A stretch of 64,000 nt of DNA, from the NCBI GenBank assembly GCA_964371025.1, contig CAYJKH010000002.1:58929-122928 (forward strand), written 5' to 3'. The notes beneath the pieces are model-generated. The model worked only from the letters and a program-made list of their open reading frames with translations. It was not told where the DNA came from and ran no database searches. Positions within the stretch are counted from its first letter, which is position 1. Every line of letters starts with the position of its first letter. The position numbers were made by a program, and so were the translations under genes. Origin of the DNA: an uncultured Muribaculaceae bacterium. Its GTDB lineage: Bacteria; Bacillota_I; Bacilli_A; RF39; UBA660. Shown here piece by piece: positions 31,330 through 64,000 of this stretch.

Positions 31330-31659
31330 ATGTATCAAAATAAAATAAATTTAATGCCACAAGATATTTTAGAAAAAGAATTTAAAATTGATACTCGTGG
31401 ATACAGATTAAAAGAAGTTGATCTATTTTTGGATACTGTTATTTCTGATTATGAACAGTTTTTGAATATGATAAATAATCTTGAAAAAGAAAAGGCTGAT
31501 TTACTTGGTGAGATTATGAAATTAAAACAAGAATTAAGAAATAATAGAATTAATGTAGAAGCAGCAAGAAGTAATGAAATGAATGAGGTTTCTAACGTTG
31601 ATATTTTAAGAAGAATATCACAATTAGAAAAATTAGTATACGGTGATAGAAATAATTAA
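31330..31659 (+). CDS. gpsB: cell-cycle protein GpsB (DivIVA domain)
   Basis: N-terminus MPQDILEKEFKIDTRGYRLKEVDLFLD. Adjacent rnpB as in Bacillus. Confidence 0.8.
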   Translation: MYQNKINLMPQDILEKEFKIDTRGYRLKEVDLFLDTVISDYEQFLNMINNLEKEKADLLGEIMKLKQELRNNRINVEAARSNEMNEVSNVDILRRISQLEKLVYGDRNN

Positions 31660-31663
31660 TATA

Positions 31664-32008
31664 TAGATAAACGCTGGTATTTTAAAATGCTTGAGGAAAG
31701 TCCATGCTCTCACAAACTGAGATGTTTGTAGTGTTCATGTATAGGGAAAAAATAACCTATAGTAGAGAAATCTAACGGAGGTAGTTAAGTCTAAGTCTTT
31801 GATATGATTTAATCCATAAAAGTGCCGCAGTGACGATAACTTTGGAAACGAAGGTGTGAAACGAGGTAAACCCCATGAGAGAGAAACCCAAATTTGGTAG
31901 GGGAATTCTAACGAAGGAATTAAACGGAGTTAGGAACTGTTTGTATATATACAAATGGTAGATAAATGTTTATCGCCTAGAAATAGGAACAGAACATGGC
32001 TTATTTAT
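31664..32008 (+). ncRNA. rnpB: RNase P RNA, bacterial type B
   Basis: GAGGAAAGTCCATGCTC, AGTGCCGCAGTGACG, GGTAAACCCCATGAGAGAGAAACCCAAATTTGGTAGGGGAA and ACAGAACATGGCTTA conserved blocks. Ends approximate. Confidence 0.85.
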
Positions 32009-44184: not shown

Positions 44185-44271
44185 GCCTGTGTGGTGGAAT
44201 TGGTAGACACGTTGGACTCAAAATCCAATGGTAGAAATATCATGTCGGTTCAAGTCCGACCACAGGTACCA
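44185..44271 (+). tRNA. tRNA-Leu (anticodon CAA), CCA encoded
   Basis: 87 nt. Acceptor GCCTGTG/CACAGGT. Anticodon loop CUCAAAA. Long variable arm. T-loop GGTTCAAGTCC. Confidence 0.9.
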
Positions 44272-58809: not shown

Positions 58810-59427
58810 ATGAATCAGGAAATTTTTAGTAATAGTAATAATTATTATTGTGCACATGGAACAGGGCGCTTAAATGATAGTCCTGAGATAATTAATTCAA
58901 TTTTTAAGATTGGATTAAGATGTAGTCATGGCTCTTTGGAAAATACAGTAGTTCAATATGGATCAGGCCGTGATGATCTTTTTAATGAAAAGAAAAATAG
59001 TTTTGATAACTGGGAACATATTAATTCAAAAAAAATAGTTATAATTAGTGTTCCCAAAGAATTATATATTCATTATTCTTTTAAAAAAGATTGCTCATAT
59101 AAAGCATTTGAATATATTAATGATGAAAATCAAAATGTATATTTAAGACCTGAATATGTAAGAGGGTATTATAATGCAGAAACAGAAGAATTTATAGAAA
59201 ATCCTAATTATTATGATAAGTTAGATGATAATTATCAAAGAAAATTATACGAAGAAGTAAAAACAAATTTTGCTAAAACAATTAATGAATTAGGTAGTTC
59301 CCTTGAGGAGTATAATTCTATTTATGAAAATTTCATTGAATCTCCAATTCCTTTTAGTGAAGCAGAAATAAAGTTGTATGATCAAATGTACCAAAAAAAT
59401 TCAAATGAAAAAGATTTTAGTAGATAA
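58810..59427 (+). CDS. hypothetical cytoplasmic protein
   Basis: RBS AAGAGG. Own extended -10 TGATATAAT. 205 aa. No recognisable domain. Confidence 0.45.
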   Translation: MNQEIFSNSNNYYCAHGTGRLNDSPEIINSIFKIGLRCSHGSLENTVVQYGSGRDDLFNEKKNSFDNWEHINSKKIVIISVPKELYIHYSFKKDCSYKAFEYINDENQNVYLRPEYVRGYYNAETEEFIENPNYYDKLDDNYQRKLYEEVKTNFAKTINELGSSLEEYNSIYENFIESPIPFSEAEIKLYDQMYQKNSNEKDFSR

Positions 59428-62370: not shown

Positions 62371-63123
62371 ATGGATATAGTTAAACTTAATATAATAATA
62401 AATAATTATCTGGATAAAATGGGAAATGAAAATAATATATTAACAGGAAGTTTATTGTCTGAAGAAGTAAAGTCATTTTTACAAAAGGACGCAAATCCGT
62501 TTTTAATAGGATTAATAGCAGATCAATCAGTTAAAGCAGAAATAGCATGGAGTTTACCTTATAAATTAAAGAATCGAATGAATACTTTTGGTTTTATAGA
62601 TATATTAAATAATTTTTCAATACACGAAATCGAAGATTTTATTAAAATAAAACCAGCTTTGCATAGATTTCCTAGTAAAATGGCTCAGTACATATATTTA
62701 GCTATAAAAGATGTAGTAGAAAAATATGAAGGAGATGCTAGTAATATATGGGTAAATAAAACCGCAAAAGAAATAGTAACTAAATTAGAACAGTTTAAAG
62801 GTATTAGCCATAAAAAAGCCTCACTTGGAACGCTTTTATTAGTAAGAGATATGAATTTAAAAATTGTTGACATGGAAAATATTGATATAGCATATGATGT
62901 TCATATAAAAAGAATATTTAAAAGAGTAGGATTAGTAGAAGAAGAAAACGAAGAAAATGTATTGCTAGCTGCAAGAAAACTTAATCCAATATTCCCGGGT
63001 AAATTAACAACATTTTTTTGGGCAATAGGCAGAGACTATTGTTATGCTACTGAACCCAAATGTAAAAGTTGTCCACTAGGTTATGAATGTAAGGAAAATA
63101 TAACTGTTAAAGAGAGGTGCTAA
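62371..63123 (+). CDS. HhH-GPD/endonuclease III-like protein with [4Fe-4S] cluster loop
   Basis: C-terminal C-X6-C-X2-C-X5-C (CYATEPKCKSCPLGYEC). Weak HhH FKGISHKKASLGT. Confidence 0.5.
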   Translation: MDIVKLNIIINNYLDKMGNENNILTGSLLSEEVKSFLQKDANPFLIGLIADQSVKAEIAWSLPYKLKNRMNTFGFIDILNNFSIHEIEDFIKIKPALHRFPSKMAQYIYLAIKDVVEKYEGDASNIWVNKTAKEIVTKLEQFKGISHKKASLGTLLLVRDMNLKIVDMENIDIAYDVHIKRIFKRVGLVEEENEENVLLAARKLNPIFPGKLTTFFWAIGRDYCYATEPKCKSCPLGYECKENITVKERC

Positions 63124-63124
63124 T

Positions 63125-63283
63125 ATGATAGAATTAATAAAAAAAGAAAATATTTCCTCAATAAAATTACATGAACAGCTAGGTTTTGTTTATGAGGGTA
63201 AAAGTTTGGATGAATATGCTAATGGATACCCTATTAATCATTTAGGATATATTTATAAATCAAAAACTAATAAAAAAAATTAG
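63125..63283 (+). pseudogene. possible GNAT acetyltransferase C-terminal fragment (52 codons)
   Basis: SIKLHEQLGFVYEG resembles the GNAT motif-B/C-terminal strand region. No N-terminal half. Starts 2 nt after the preceding stop. Confidence 0.3.
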
Positions 63284-63373
63284 TATTATGATATAATACA
63301 TCAGGTAAACAGAAATTGTTCTATAATAAAAATTAATAACAATGCAAATTTGTTTATAAGAAAAGAGGGAATT

Positions 63374-64000
63374 AATGGTTGTAGAAATTTTAAAAAAATA
63401 TGGATATCAAGAAAAAGAAATAGCGAAAATTTTAAAAAATGAAAAGATAAATGCTTATCAATCATCAAAATTAGAAGAAAAGATTAATGAAGTATTTGAA
63501 TATTTTATAAATAAAAATTATACTGAAAAAGAAATAATAAAAATGACTAAATCATTACCTAGTCTATTCACTTATAGTATTGAAATGATGGAATATAAAG
63601 AAAAGGAAATGGTAGAATTTGGTTATCCAAAGGAACAATTTATAAAAATGAGTAAAATAGTACCGGCGGTTTTTAGTTATAGCGTTGATAATATTAAAAC
63701 TAAACAAAAAGATATGGAAGATTTAGGATATAATAAAAAAGAATTTATAAAAATGACTAAAACTTTACCAACTATTTTTGGACTTAATATTAAAAATATA
63801 AGAGATAAAATTGCTTTTTTGGAAGATATAGGTTATAAAAGAGAAGAAATTCTTAAAATGAGTAAAACATTTCCAACTTTATTTTCACTAAATACTGAAA
63901 AAATAGAGGAAAGACAAAAAGAACTTCTGGAGTTTGGCTATACCCAAGAAGAAGTCTTGAAGATTACAAAAACATCTCCAGGAATATTTGGAATTAGTAT
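63374..64000 (+). CDS. mTERF-like helical repeat protein, 3' end outside window
   Basis: RBS AAAGAGGG. Five or more tandem repeats of about 36 aa, GYxKEEIxKMxKxxPxxF, with invariant Pro (PSLF/PAVF/PTIF/PTLF/PGIF). Confidence 0.5.

What the first reader, a model, noticed from the sequence alone, without database searches (positions are those of the whole stretch)
63374..64000. mTERF-like tandem helical repeat protein in a bacterium
There are at least five 36-aa repeats with pattern G(Y/F)xKEEIxKMxKxxPxxF(S/G) and an invariant Pro. This matches the mitochondrial transcription termination factor (mTERF) repeat architecture, which is common in eukaryotic organelles but rare and functionally uncharacterised in bacteria. 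The gene has a strong RBS and runs off the window end.
Basis: partly seen in the sequence, partly recalled or inferred. Interest (0 to 1): 0.55.

Follow-up and report, generated by a model that had tools for sequence, protein, structure and literature searches.

The report
Bacterial mTERF-like (pTERF) repeat protein gene
The end of the window holds the first 208 codons of a real bacterial protein built from 35-residue mTERF repeats, a fold best known from mitochondria and chloroplasts. It fits the "pTERF" family of DNA-binding repeat proteins from gut Bacillota described in 2024, so it is a new member of a known but little-studied kind.

Summary
An ORF starts at ATG 63375, has a GAGGG ribosome-binding site, and runs off the window end. 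It encodes an N-terminal cap and five tandem units with an invariant Pro. The period is 35 aa (105 nt), not 36.

The mTERF reading is supported:
- Pfam PF02536 scores 86 bits against a cutoff of 23.
- A family profile hits human MTERF1 in the PDB at E=3e-14.
- The AlphaFold2 model (pLDDT 95) has three helices per unit. Its 17 best Foldseek PDB matches are all mTERF proteins (TM up to 0.78).
- There is no TPR, Sel1 or HEAT signal.

The "uncharacterised in bacteria" part is out of date. A 2024 NAR paper (PMC11417379) named these proteins pTERF: 35-aa tandem mTERF-like repeats from gut Bacillota MAGs. Two members bind specific dsDNA motifs at nM affinity in vitro.

Relatives are numerous: 386 clusters (50% identity) at E<=1e-30, and at least 36 GTDB species, mostly low-GC uncultured Bacilli or Clostridia. 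They usually sit in same-strand arrays of 1-6 paralogues with a conserved ~130-aa mTERF-like partner gene.

The window copy is at most ~44% identical to any relative over most of its length. Its genome is in none of the collections, so its C-terminus and downstream genes cannot be seen. The role in the cell is unknown. The best inference is a sequence-specific DNA-binding regulator.

The parts
63289..63297 (+). Possible extended -10 promoter element, TGATATAAT, 78 nt upstream of the start codon
   Evidence: Read directly from the sequence. The consensus promoter scan found no more sites than shuffled sequence gives and did not list this one, so this is weak.
63363..63369 (+). Ribosome-binding site AAGAGGG; the GAGGG core ends 5 nt before the ATG
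   Evidence: Read directly from the sequence.
63375..64000 (+). Partial CDS (208 codons seen, 3' end missing) of an mTERF-fold, pTERF-like tandem-repeat protein
   Evidence: Translation. Pfam PF02536 at 86.1 bits. A profile of the bacterial family aligns colinearly from the N-terminus at E=1.9e-59. AF2 pLDDT 95.1. Foldseek top hits are all mTERF proteins.
63375..63509 (+). N-terminal cap, aa 1-45: a degenerate mTERF-like unit (KYGYQEKEIAKIL...) with 38-aa spacing to the next unit
   Evidence: Alignment with full-length relatives shows the same N-terminal architecture. Helices at aa 2-8, 13-21, 23-26 and 30-46 in the model.
63510..63614 (+). Repeat unit 1, aa 46-80, Pro62
   Evidence: Unit HMM match 46-80; three helices at 51-60, 62-66 and 69-82.
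63615..63719 (+). Repeat unit 2, aa 81-115, Pro97
   Evidence: Unit HMM match 81-115; helices at 86-95, 97-101 and 104-116.
63720..63824 (+). Repeat unit 3, aa 116-150, Pro132
   Evidence: Unit HMM match 116-150; helices at 121-130, 132-136 and 139-151.
63825..63929 (+). Repeat unit 4, aa 151-185, Pro167
   Evidence: Unit HMM match 151-185; helices at 156-165, 167-171 and 174-186.
63930..64000 (+). Repeat unit 5, aa 186-208, Pro202, cut at position 23 of 35 by the window end
   Evidence: Unit HMM match 186-208 to profile positions 1-23.

Best explanation
The gene encodes a bacterial mTERF-fold solenoid of the pTERF type. It has an N-terminal cap followed by at least five contiguous 35-residue units. 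Each unit forms three short helices around an invariant proline, and the units stack into a curved superhelix like human MTERF1 and MTERF3.

Shown here: the ORF, the 35-aa tandem architecture, homology to mTERF, the predicted fold, membership of a large family confined mainly to low-GC gut Bacillota, and a chromosomal, non-mobile setting.

Inferred: like pTERF1 and pTERF2 (nM, sequence-specific dsDNA binding in vitro) and MTERF1 (which wraps around a specific duplex site), the protein probably lays its concave face along double-stranded DNA and recognises a short specific site.
- The conserved Lys at unit positions 11, 14 and 30 would contact the backbone.
- The most variable unit positions, especially 15 and 18 on either side of the Pro, would set specificity.
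- Once bound, it would act as a transcriptional regulator or roadblock.

By analogy with full-length relatives, the missing C-terminus is expected to hold zero or more further units and a conserved ~90-aa degenerate mTERF cap (LMQSxxLSYARY...NYRKLF). A ~130-aa mTERF-like partner gene may follow.
For: - Pfam PF02536: E=2.7e-24, 86.1 bits against a cutoff of 23.1.
- PDB by sequence: MTERF3 E=5e-5. With a family profile: MTERF1 E=3e-14.
- AF2 pLDDT 95.1 with three helices per unit.
- Foldseek: the 17 best PDB hits are all mTERF proteins, TMq 0.73-0.78, including DNA-bound MTERF1.
- The full-length relative P0020 aligns over 259-301 columns to MTERF3 and MTERF1.
- Period of 35 aa. pTERF1's identifier TR_35_C32_2 encodes a 35-aa period.
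- pTERF is described as tandem mTERF-annotated repeats, three helices per unit, 3-11 units, from Bacillota gut MAGs. pTERF1 binds ACTNNNAGTC with Kd 1.87 nM and pTERF2 binds another motif.
- Relatives occur in at least 36 GTDB species, mostly uncultured Bacilli, Clostridia or Erysipelotrichaceae, including rumen MAGs.
- The window is Bacillota-like: class B RNase P RNA and about 26% GC.
- Over 312 family units, G3, Y4, P17 and K30 are 93-98% conserved and K11 and K14 are 82-83% conserved. Position 15 has the highest entropy and position 18 is also among the most variable (with 1, 32 and 35).
Against: - No binding data exist for this protein, and its C-terminal part is not in the window.
- The pTERF1 sequence (MBQ3414883.1) was not available, so direct homology to the tested proteins is inferred from shared features, not measured.
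- The paper says the classical mTERF hallmarks (a Pro at motif position 8 and the hydrophobic heptads) were 'not observed' in pTERF1, whereas this protein has an invariant Pro. That may be a difference in repeat register or a real difference between families.
- The visible fragment is nearly charge-neutral (36 K+R against 33 D+E), unlike strongly basic DNA binders.
- Several eukaryotic mTERFs bind RNA rather than DNA.
- No target site, conserved operator or conserved neighbour was found at this locus.
Confidence: 0.62

Rival explanations
1. The fold and family are the same, but the ligand is RNA. The protein would bind rRNA or an mRNA or intron and act in ribosome biogenesis or RNA processing, as MTERF4 does with NSUN4 on the mitoribosome and as several plant mTERFs do.
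For: - MTERF4 chains from mitoribosome assembly intermediates are among the significant structural hits (7o9k, 4fp9, 9hcg).
- A Tetrahymena mitoribosomal mTERF-like protein, 6z1p_BY, also hits.
- The NAR paper's predicted targets for pTERF1 and pTERF2 were enriched for 'RNA metabolic process' GO terms.
- The fragment's overall charge is near neutral.
Against: - The two bacterial family members tested bind dsDNA specifically at nM affinity.
- The best structural matches by TM-score are DNA-bound MTERF1 (TMq 0.77) and MTERF3, while MTERF4 is poorer (TMq 0.53-0.55, rmsd about 6 A).
- No methyltransferase or ribosome-biogenesis gene is a conserved neighbour in the related loci. The only widely conserved one is the short mTERF-like partner (22 of 37 loci); every other neighbour cluster occurs in at most 5 loci.
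Confidence: 0.2
2. It is a protein-protein interaction scaffold: an alpha-solenoid used as an adaptor, like TPR, Sel1 or HEAT proteins, with no nucleic-acid ligand. It might form a complex with its short mTERF-like partner.
For: - Alpha-solenoids often mediate protein binding.
- Relatives are usually co-encoded with a ~130-aa partner that has an acidic tail, often with overlapping stop and start codons, which suggests a complex.
- The fragment is near neutral in charge.
Against: - No TPR, Sel1 or HEAT Pfam hit appears even at E<=10.
- Foldseek finds mTERFs only; designed helical repeats and TALEs score at E>0.1.
- Relatives tested in vitro bind DNA without any partner.
Confidence: 0.08
3. It is a recent horizontal acquisition from a eukaryote, or eukaryotic contamination or misassembly, rather than a native bacterial gene.
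For: - mTERF proteins are classically eukaryotic, and reviews up to 2026 still state that they are absent from prokaryotes.
- The bacterial-family profile retrieves plant-type mTERFs with very low E-values, for example P0135.
Against: - The gene is contiguous with bacterial genes on the same strand: recG, an OmpR-type response regulator, a histidine kinase, phosphoketolase and PFOR.
- It has a Shine-Dalgarno sequence, and its GC (23%) is close to the window's (26%).
- Relatives occur in at least 36 bacterial species, in multi-paralogue arrays embedded among sporulation and housekeeping genes.
- Identity to solved eukaryotic mTERFs is only 15-19%.
- An ancient transfer in either direction is not excluded.
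Confidence: 0.03

Closest known systems
pTERF family (prokaryotic mTERF-like proteins; pTERF1 = MBQ3414883.1, and pTERF2), NAR 2024, PMC11417379
   Same: - Contiguous 35-aa repeats annotated as mTERF motifs, with three helices per unit.
- Unit number within the reported range of 3-11.
- Hosts are gut-associated Bacillota known mainly from MAGs.
- No other domains.
   Different: - This copy is at most ~44% identical over most of its length to any relative found among 5.8 billion proteins.
- It comes from a genome absent from all collections searched.
- Its DNA target is unknown.
- Direct alignment to pTERF1 could not be done.
- The paper reports about 46 homologues and, in the text I searched, does not mention genomic context. 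Here the family has hundreds of 50%-identity clusters, occurs in paralogue arrays, and has a conserved short partner gene.
Human MTERF1 (PDB 3MVA/3MVB), mitochondrial transcription termination factor
   Same: - Same Pfam family.
- Superhelical stack of three-helix motifs with a conserved Pro.
- Foldseek TMq 0.77, rmsd 3.5 A over 222 columns.
- A family profile scores E=3e-14.
   Different: - Only 18-19% identity.
- MTERF1's motifs are irregular and interspersed, whereas here the units are a regular, contiguous 35-aa array.
- MTERF1 is nuclear-encoded and imported into mitochondria; this protein is bacterial.
- The base-flipping residues of MTERF1 (R162, F243, Y288) were not mapped here.
Human MTERF3 (PDB 3M66)
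   Same: Best single hit by sequence (E=5e-5, aligned over query residues 5-193) and by Foldseek (E=2.5e-7, TMq 0.73, rmsd 3.1 A).
   Different: 19% identity. It is an organellar regulator of transcription and ribosome biogenesis, and it has no regular tandem periodicity.
TALE and BurrH/BAT modular DNA-binding repeat proteins
   Same: Works-like analogy only: tandem units of about 33-35 aa form a superhelix that tracks DNA, with a few variable positions per unit. The NAR paper suggests pTERFs may be reprogrammable in the same way.
   Different: This is a different fold class at the level of detectable similarity. Foldseek gives E=0.17 and TMq 0.36 for TALE 4hpz with the window model, and E=6.8e-3 and TMq 0.30 for BurrH 4cja with the full-length relative. 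There is no Pfam TALE hit, and no one-unit-one-base code has been shown.

Membership tests
mTERF superfamily (Pfam PF02536) | Match to the family HMM above the curated gathering score | tested here: met
   86.1 bits against a cutoff of 23.1, E=2.7e-24, in two stretches. Relatives score 76-125 bits.
mTERF superfamily (Pfam PF02536) | Repeated motif of about 30-35 aa with three helices and a conserved proline, stacked into a superhelical solenoid | tested here: met
   AF2 model with pLDDT 95.1 and three helices per 35-aa unit. Pro is invariant at aa 62, 97, 132, 167 and 202. The 17 top Foldseek PDB hits are all mTERF chains, TMq up to 0.78.
mTERF superfamily (Pfam PF02536) | Classical distribution: nuclear-encoded and targeted to mitochondria or chloroplasts | tested here: not met
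   The gene lies on a bacterial chromosome segment with class B RNase P RNA, recG, a two-component system and PFOR. This describes where the classical family is found, not its fold, so it separates 'eukaryotic mTERF' from 'pTERF'.
mTERF superfamily (Pfam PF02536) | Binds nucleic acid (dsDNA or RNA) | not testable with these tools
   This needs biochemistry. It is inferred from pTERF1 and pTERF2 and from the MTERF1-DNA structures.
pTERF (prokaryotic mTERF-like proteins, PMC11417379) | Contiguous tandem repeats with a 35-aa period that carry the mTERF annotation | tested here: met
   Lag-35 self-identity of 40%. Tandem Repeats Finder period of 105 nt. Unit HMM matches at aa 46, 81, 116, 151 and 186. 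pTERF1's identifier TR_35_C32_2 means a 35-aa period.
pTERF (prokaryotic mTERF-like proteins, PMC11417379) | 3-11 repeat units and no other domain | tested here: met
   At least 5 units plus an N-terminal cap in the visible part. This is a lower bound because the gene is cut. There is no other significant Pfam domain.
pTERF (prokaryotic mTERF-like proteins, PMC11417379) | Host is a bacterium, mostly Bacillota from gut metagenomes | tested here: met
   Class B RNase P RNA and 26% GC indicate a low-GC Bacillota. Relatives are in gut Bacilli, Clostridia and Erysipelotrichaceae MAGs, including rumen RUG MAGs. The habitat of the window's own organism is unknown.
pTERF (prokaryotic mTERF-like proteins, PMC11417379) | Significant sequence similarity to the type member pTERF1 (MBQ3414883.1) | not testable with these tools
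   The sequence and Table S11 are not held, and NCBI accessions were not returned for cluster members.
pTERF (prokaryotic mTERF-like proteins, PMC11417379) | Sequence-specific dsDNA binding at nM affinity | not testable with these tools
   Shown only for pTERF1 and pTERF2 by SELEX, EMSA and BLI.
Bacterial family as delimited here (relatives P0001-P0121, loci L001-L043) | Conserved C-terminal cap of about 90 aa (LMQSxxLSYARYxF...NYRKLF...FEK) after the last unit | not testable with these tools
   It is nearly invariant in full-length relatives. The window ends inside unit 5, and the source genome was not found in any collection.
Bacterial family as delimited here (relatives P0001-P0121, loci L001-L043) | Colinear N-terminal cap followed by the unit array | tested here: met
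   The family profile aligns its positions 4-209 to the window protein from its N-terminus, at E=1.9e-59 (alignment).
   No such Pfam family appears even at E<=10, and none is among the Foldseek PDB hits.

The most novel reading that the evidence does not exclude
pTERF genes and their conserved ~130-aa mTERF-like partner may form a previously undescribed two-component module. It would have been amplified into arrays of up to six diverging paralogues in low-GC gut Bacilli, giving a bacterial, paralogue-diversified set of 'programmable' DNA readers whose specificity is set by a few variable positions per 35-aa unit. This bacterial clade may also be anciently related, as donor or recipient, to the organellar mTERFs of eukaryotes. 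That would contradict the standing statement that mTERFs are absent from prokaryotes. The window gene would then be a deep-branching member of the system, in a genome not yet in public collections.
Probability: 0.15. Interest if true: 0.75.

Novelty: new member of a known kind. Interest (0 to 1): 0.4.

Why it matters
mTERF proteins are key regulators of mitochondrial and chloroplast gene expression, and reviews up to 2026 still call them absent from prokaryotes. The window gene is another clear bacterial example, with an unusually regular 35-aa array.

It adds to a family known so far from one 2024 screen, which treated it as a possible reprogrammable DNA-binding scaffold. The family is much larger than reported there, occurs in paralogue arrays, and has a conserved partner gene. 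That gives concrete handles for finding its role in the cell and for asking how bacterial and organellar mTERFs are related.

For this particular window the finding is modest. The gene is truncated, its sequence is divergent but its architecture is typical, and it has no informative local context.

Tried and rejected
1. Recovering the full-length gene and downstream neighbours failed.
- Peptide-pattern scans with the window protein found no relative in GTDB representative genomes or in JGI metagenome contigs.
- Exact-protein look-ups of two upstream window genes found nothing.
- No protein more than ~57% identical (and that only over part of the query) exists in the 5.8-billion-protein set.

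2. Phage or mobile origin was rejected.
- There were no viral-contig relatives and no PHROG or PADLOC hit for the window protein.
- The neighbours are housekeeping genes.
- The weak PHROG and AbiTi hits for P0001 have no significant individual stretch and look like repeat or composition noise.

3. Synteny was not found. None of the window's upstream genes recurs next to relatives, apart from an unrelated response-regulator match at ~30% identity.

4. Other Pfam hits (UBA, RuvA_C, DUF7070 and others) were rejected. They are short helix-hairpin overlaps inside the mTERF units with zero significant stretches.

5. Domain fusions as functional clues gave nothing. The long hits (600-2000 aa) carry only mTERF domains, and most look eukaryotic.

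6. Operator-like repeats or a terminator near the gene were not found beyond what AT-rich chance gives.

7. A direct comparison with pTERF1 was not possible. The sequence is not in the held supplements and cluster look-ups returned no accessions.

8. The AFDB fold library was unavailable.

Full report
**What is there**

- The last 626 bases of the window carry an ORF that starts at ATG 63375. A GAGGG core lies 5 nt upstream. A TGATATAAT element at 63289-63297 could be an extended -10, but this was read by eye and is not supported by the consensus scan.
- The frame stays open for 208 codons to the window end. With 47% A and 29% T, the chance of that without a stop codon is about 5e-11. Only short ORFs (47-55 aa) lie on the other strand.
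- The protein is periodic at exactly 35 residues. Self-identity is 40% at lag 35 and 3-10% at every other lag from 25 to 45. The unit-against-unit BLOSUM62 score is 694, against -230 +/- 37 for shuffles. Tandem Repeats Finder sees the 105-nt period in the DNA at 68% matches.
- There are five units starting at aa 46, 81, 116, 151 and 186, the last cut by the window end. A degenerate cap unit precedes them. Pro is invariant at position 17 of every unit.

**What it is**

- Pfam's mTERF model is the only significant family: 86.1 bits against a gathering score of 23.1, E=2.7e-24. No TPR, Sel1 or HEAT model appears even at E<=10. NCBIfam has nothing.
- By sequence alone the best solved structure is human MTERF3 (E=5e-5). 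With a profile of eight family members, MTERF1 scores E=3e-14.
- AlphaFold2 with a 43-sequence alignment gives pLDDT 95.1 and pTM 0.83, with three helices per unit.
- The 17 best Foldseek PDB matches are all mTERF-family chains: MTERF3 at TMq 0.73 and rmsd 3.1 A, DNA-bound MTERF1 at TMq 0.77, and MTERF4. TALEs and designed solenoids score only at E>0.1.
- A full-length relative, P0020 (pLDDT 92.8), aligns over 259-301 columns to MTERF3 and MTERF1.

**Relatives and distribution**

- A single-sequence search found nine metagenomic proteins, the best 39% identical. A profile search found more than 183, all carrying PF02536.
- An exhaustive HMM search of 1.84 billion 50%-identity cluster representatives found 386 at E<=1e-30 and 1476 at E<=1e-10. 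The weaker and longer hits include plant-type mTERFs, so bacterial and eukaryotic proteins are clearly homologous.
Almost all are uncultured low-GC 'Bacilli', 'Clostridia' or Erysipelotrichaceae gut MAGs. Examples are Clostridium sp. CAG:433 and CAG:524, Candidatus Aphodocola, and rumen RUG MAGs.
- The contigs have 21-30% GC, apart from three at 34-38%, two of which are labelled Saccharibacteria.
- The window itself is from a low-GC Bacillota: it has class B RNase P RNA and 26% GC.
- Its genome is not in any collection I could search. The C-terminus and downstream genes therefore stay unknown.
- The family profile aligns colinearly from the window protein's N-terminus at E=1.9e-59.
- Full-length relatives are about 200-680 aa with 1-15 units, and they end in a nearly invariant ~90-aa degenerate mTERF cap.

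**Context**

- In the window, the gene follows these genes on the same strand: PFOR, cardiolipin-synthase-like, phosphoketolase, recG, an unknown 205-aa ORF, an OmpR-type response regulator, a histidine kinase, a distant Endo III-like 250-aa ORF, and a 52-aa fragment.
- Nothing nearby is mobile, phage-like or defence-like.
- None of these neighbours recurs next to relatives.
- In related loci the family forms same-strand arrays of 1-6 paralogues. In 25 of 39 distinct loci there is also a conserved 127-145-aa gene that itself passes the Pfam mTERF cutoff (27-33 bits) and ends in an acidic tail. Its start often overlaps the stop of the preceding gene.
- One array sits between xseA and xseB.
- The window holds only the one copy and no partner in the part that is visible.

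**Comparison with what is known**

- Plant and animal mTERF papers, one as recent as February 2026, still state that mTERFs are absent from prokaryotes.
- A 2024 NAR paper (PMC11417379) had already found, in a screen for DNA-binding tandem-repeat proteins, a 'prokaryotic mTERF-like' family named pTERF. Its reported features:
  - 35-aa period, contiguous units, three helices per unit, 3-11 units.
  - All members from MAGs, mostly Bacillota.
  - 9-18% identity to eukaryotic mTERFs.
  - pTERF1, from a rumen Clostridia MAG, binds ACTNNNAGTC with Kd 1.87 nM. pTERF2 binds a different motif.
- No later paper on pTERF is in the library. The paper's text does not mention operons, paralogues or neighbours.
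- The window protein meets every pTERF feature I could test. Direct alignment with pTERF1 was not possible because its sequence is not held.
- One caveat: the paper says the classical Pro and heptad hallmarks were not seen in pTERF1, whereas this family has an invariant Pro. That may only reflect a different repeat register.

**Mechanism**

- Shown: the fold, the repeat architecture and family membership.
- Inferred: the solenoid binds a specific dsDNA site along its concave face and acts as a regulator or roadblock.
  - The conserved lysines at unit positions 11, 14 and 30 are candidates for backbone contacts.
  - The high-entropy positions 15 and 18, on either side of the Pro, are candidates for specificity.
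- ACTNNNAGT is its own reverse complement. This is my own observation, and it hints at two-fold symmetric binding in pTERF1.
- Rivals are RNA binding as in MTERF4 and plant mTERFs, a pure protein scaffold, and recent transfer from a eukaryote. The last has little support given the matching GC, the RBS and the broad bacterial distribution.
- The near-neutral charge of the visible fragment and the lack of any assay for this protein keep confidence in DNA binding moderate.

**Verdict**

The feature is real and correctly interpreted. It is a divergent new member of a recently described and still poorly understood family, and the copy is truncated by the window end. Interest is moderate. The more novel material, the paralogue arrays and the conserved partner gene, lies in related genomes rather than in this window.

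Noticed in passing
Related loci L001-L043, e.g. L001 10936-11331, L042 1673-2068, L012 6550-6945: A conserved 127-145-aa gene lies directly after or between pTERF-like genes in 25 of 39 distinct loci. It passes the Pfam mTERF cutoff itself (27-33 bits) and ends in an acidic tail (EELEDIIDDLDSNPxLFxEI). Its start often overlaps the stop of the preceding gene. The pTERF paper's text does not mention it.
   Followed up: partly
Related loci, e.g. L033 3038-8274 and L043 4403-8415: pTERF-like genes occur as same-strand arrays of up to 5-6 paralogues with different unit numbers (about 130-680 aa). In L043 the array is inserted between xseA and xseB. Many MAG contigs break inside these genes.
   Followed up: partly
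L030 and L039: Family members sit on contigs labelled Candidatus Nanosyncoccus and Saccharibacteria with 38% GC, against 21-30% for most other loci. This is either real presence in Patescibacteria or a binning error. Contigs labelled Muribaculaceae and Paratractidigestivibacter with 23-26% GC (L038, L026) look mis-binned.
   Followed up: no
window 63125-63283 (+): A 52-aa ORF starts 2 nt after the stop of the preceding gene. Its sequence (LHEQLGFVYEG...) looks like the C-terminal remnant of a GNAT acetyltransferase, possibly a gene fragment. It has no Pfam hit at 1e-4.
   Followed up: partly
window 62371-63123 (+): A 250-aa ORF has no Pfam hit, but its C-terminal 70 residues, including a Cys-rich CxxCPxxxxC region, match Endonuclease III structures (1orn, E=2.4e-5). 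It may be a divergent HhH/FeS glycosylase-like protein.
   Followed up: partly
window 58810-59427 (+): A 205-aa ORF between recG and the two-component system has no Pfam match.
   Followed up: no
window 31658-32008 (+) and 44185-44271 (+): Class B RNase P RNA (251 bits) and a tRNA-Leu(CAA). The RNase P class places the window in Bacillota or their relatives.
   Followed up: yes
Protein P0135 (2013 aa) and other long hits from the representative library: The profile of the bacterial family retrieves plant-type multi-mTERF proteins at E of about 1e-110, summed over 10 stretches. Sequence similarity between bacterial and plant mTERF motifs is therefore stronger than the 'no obvious similarity' stated for pTERF1.
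   Followed up: partly
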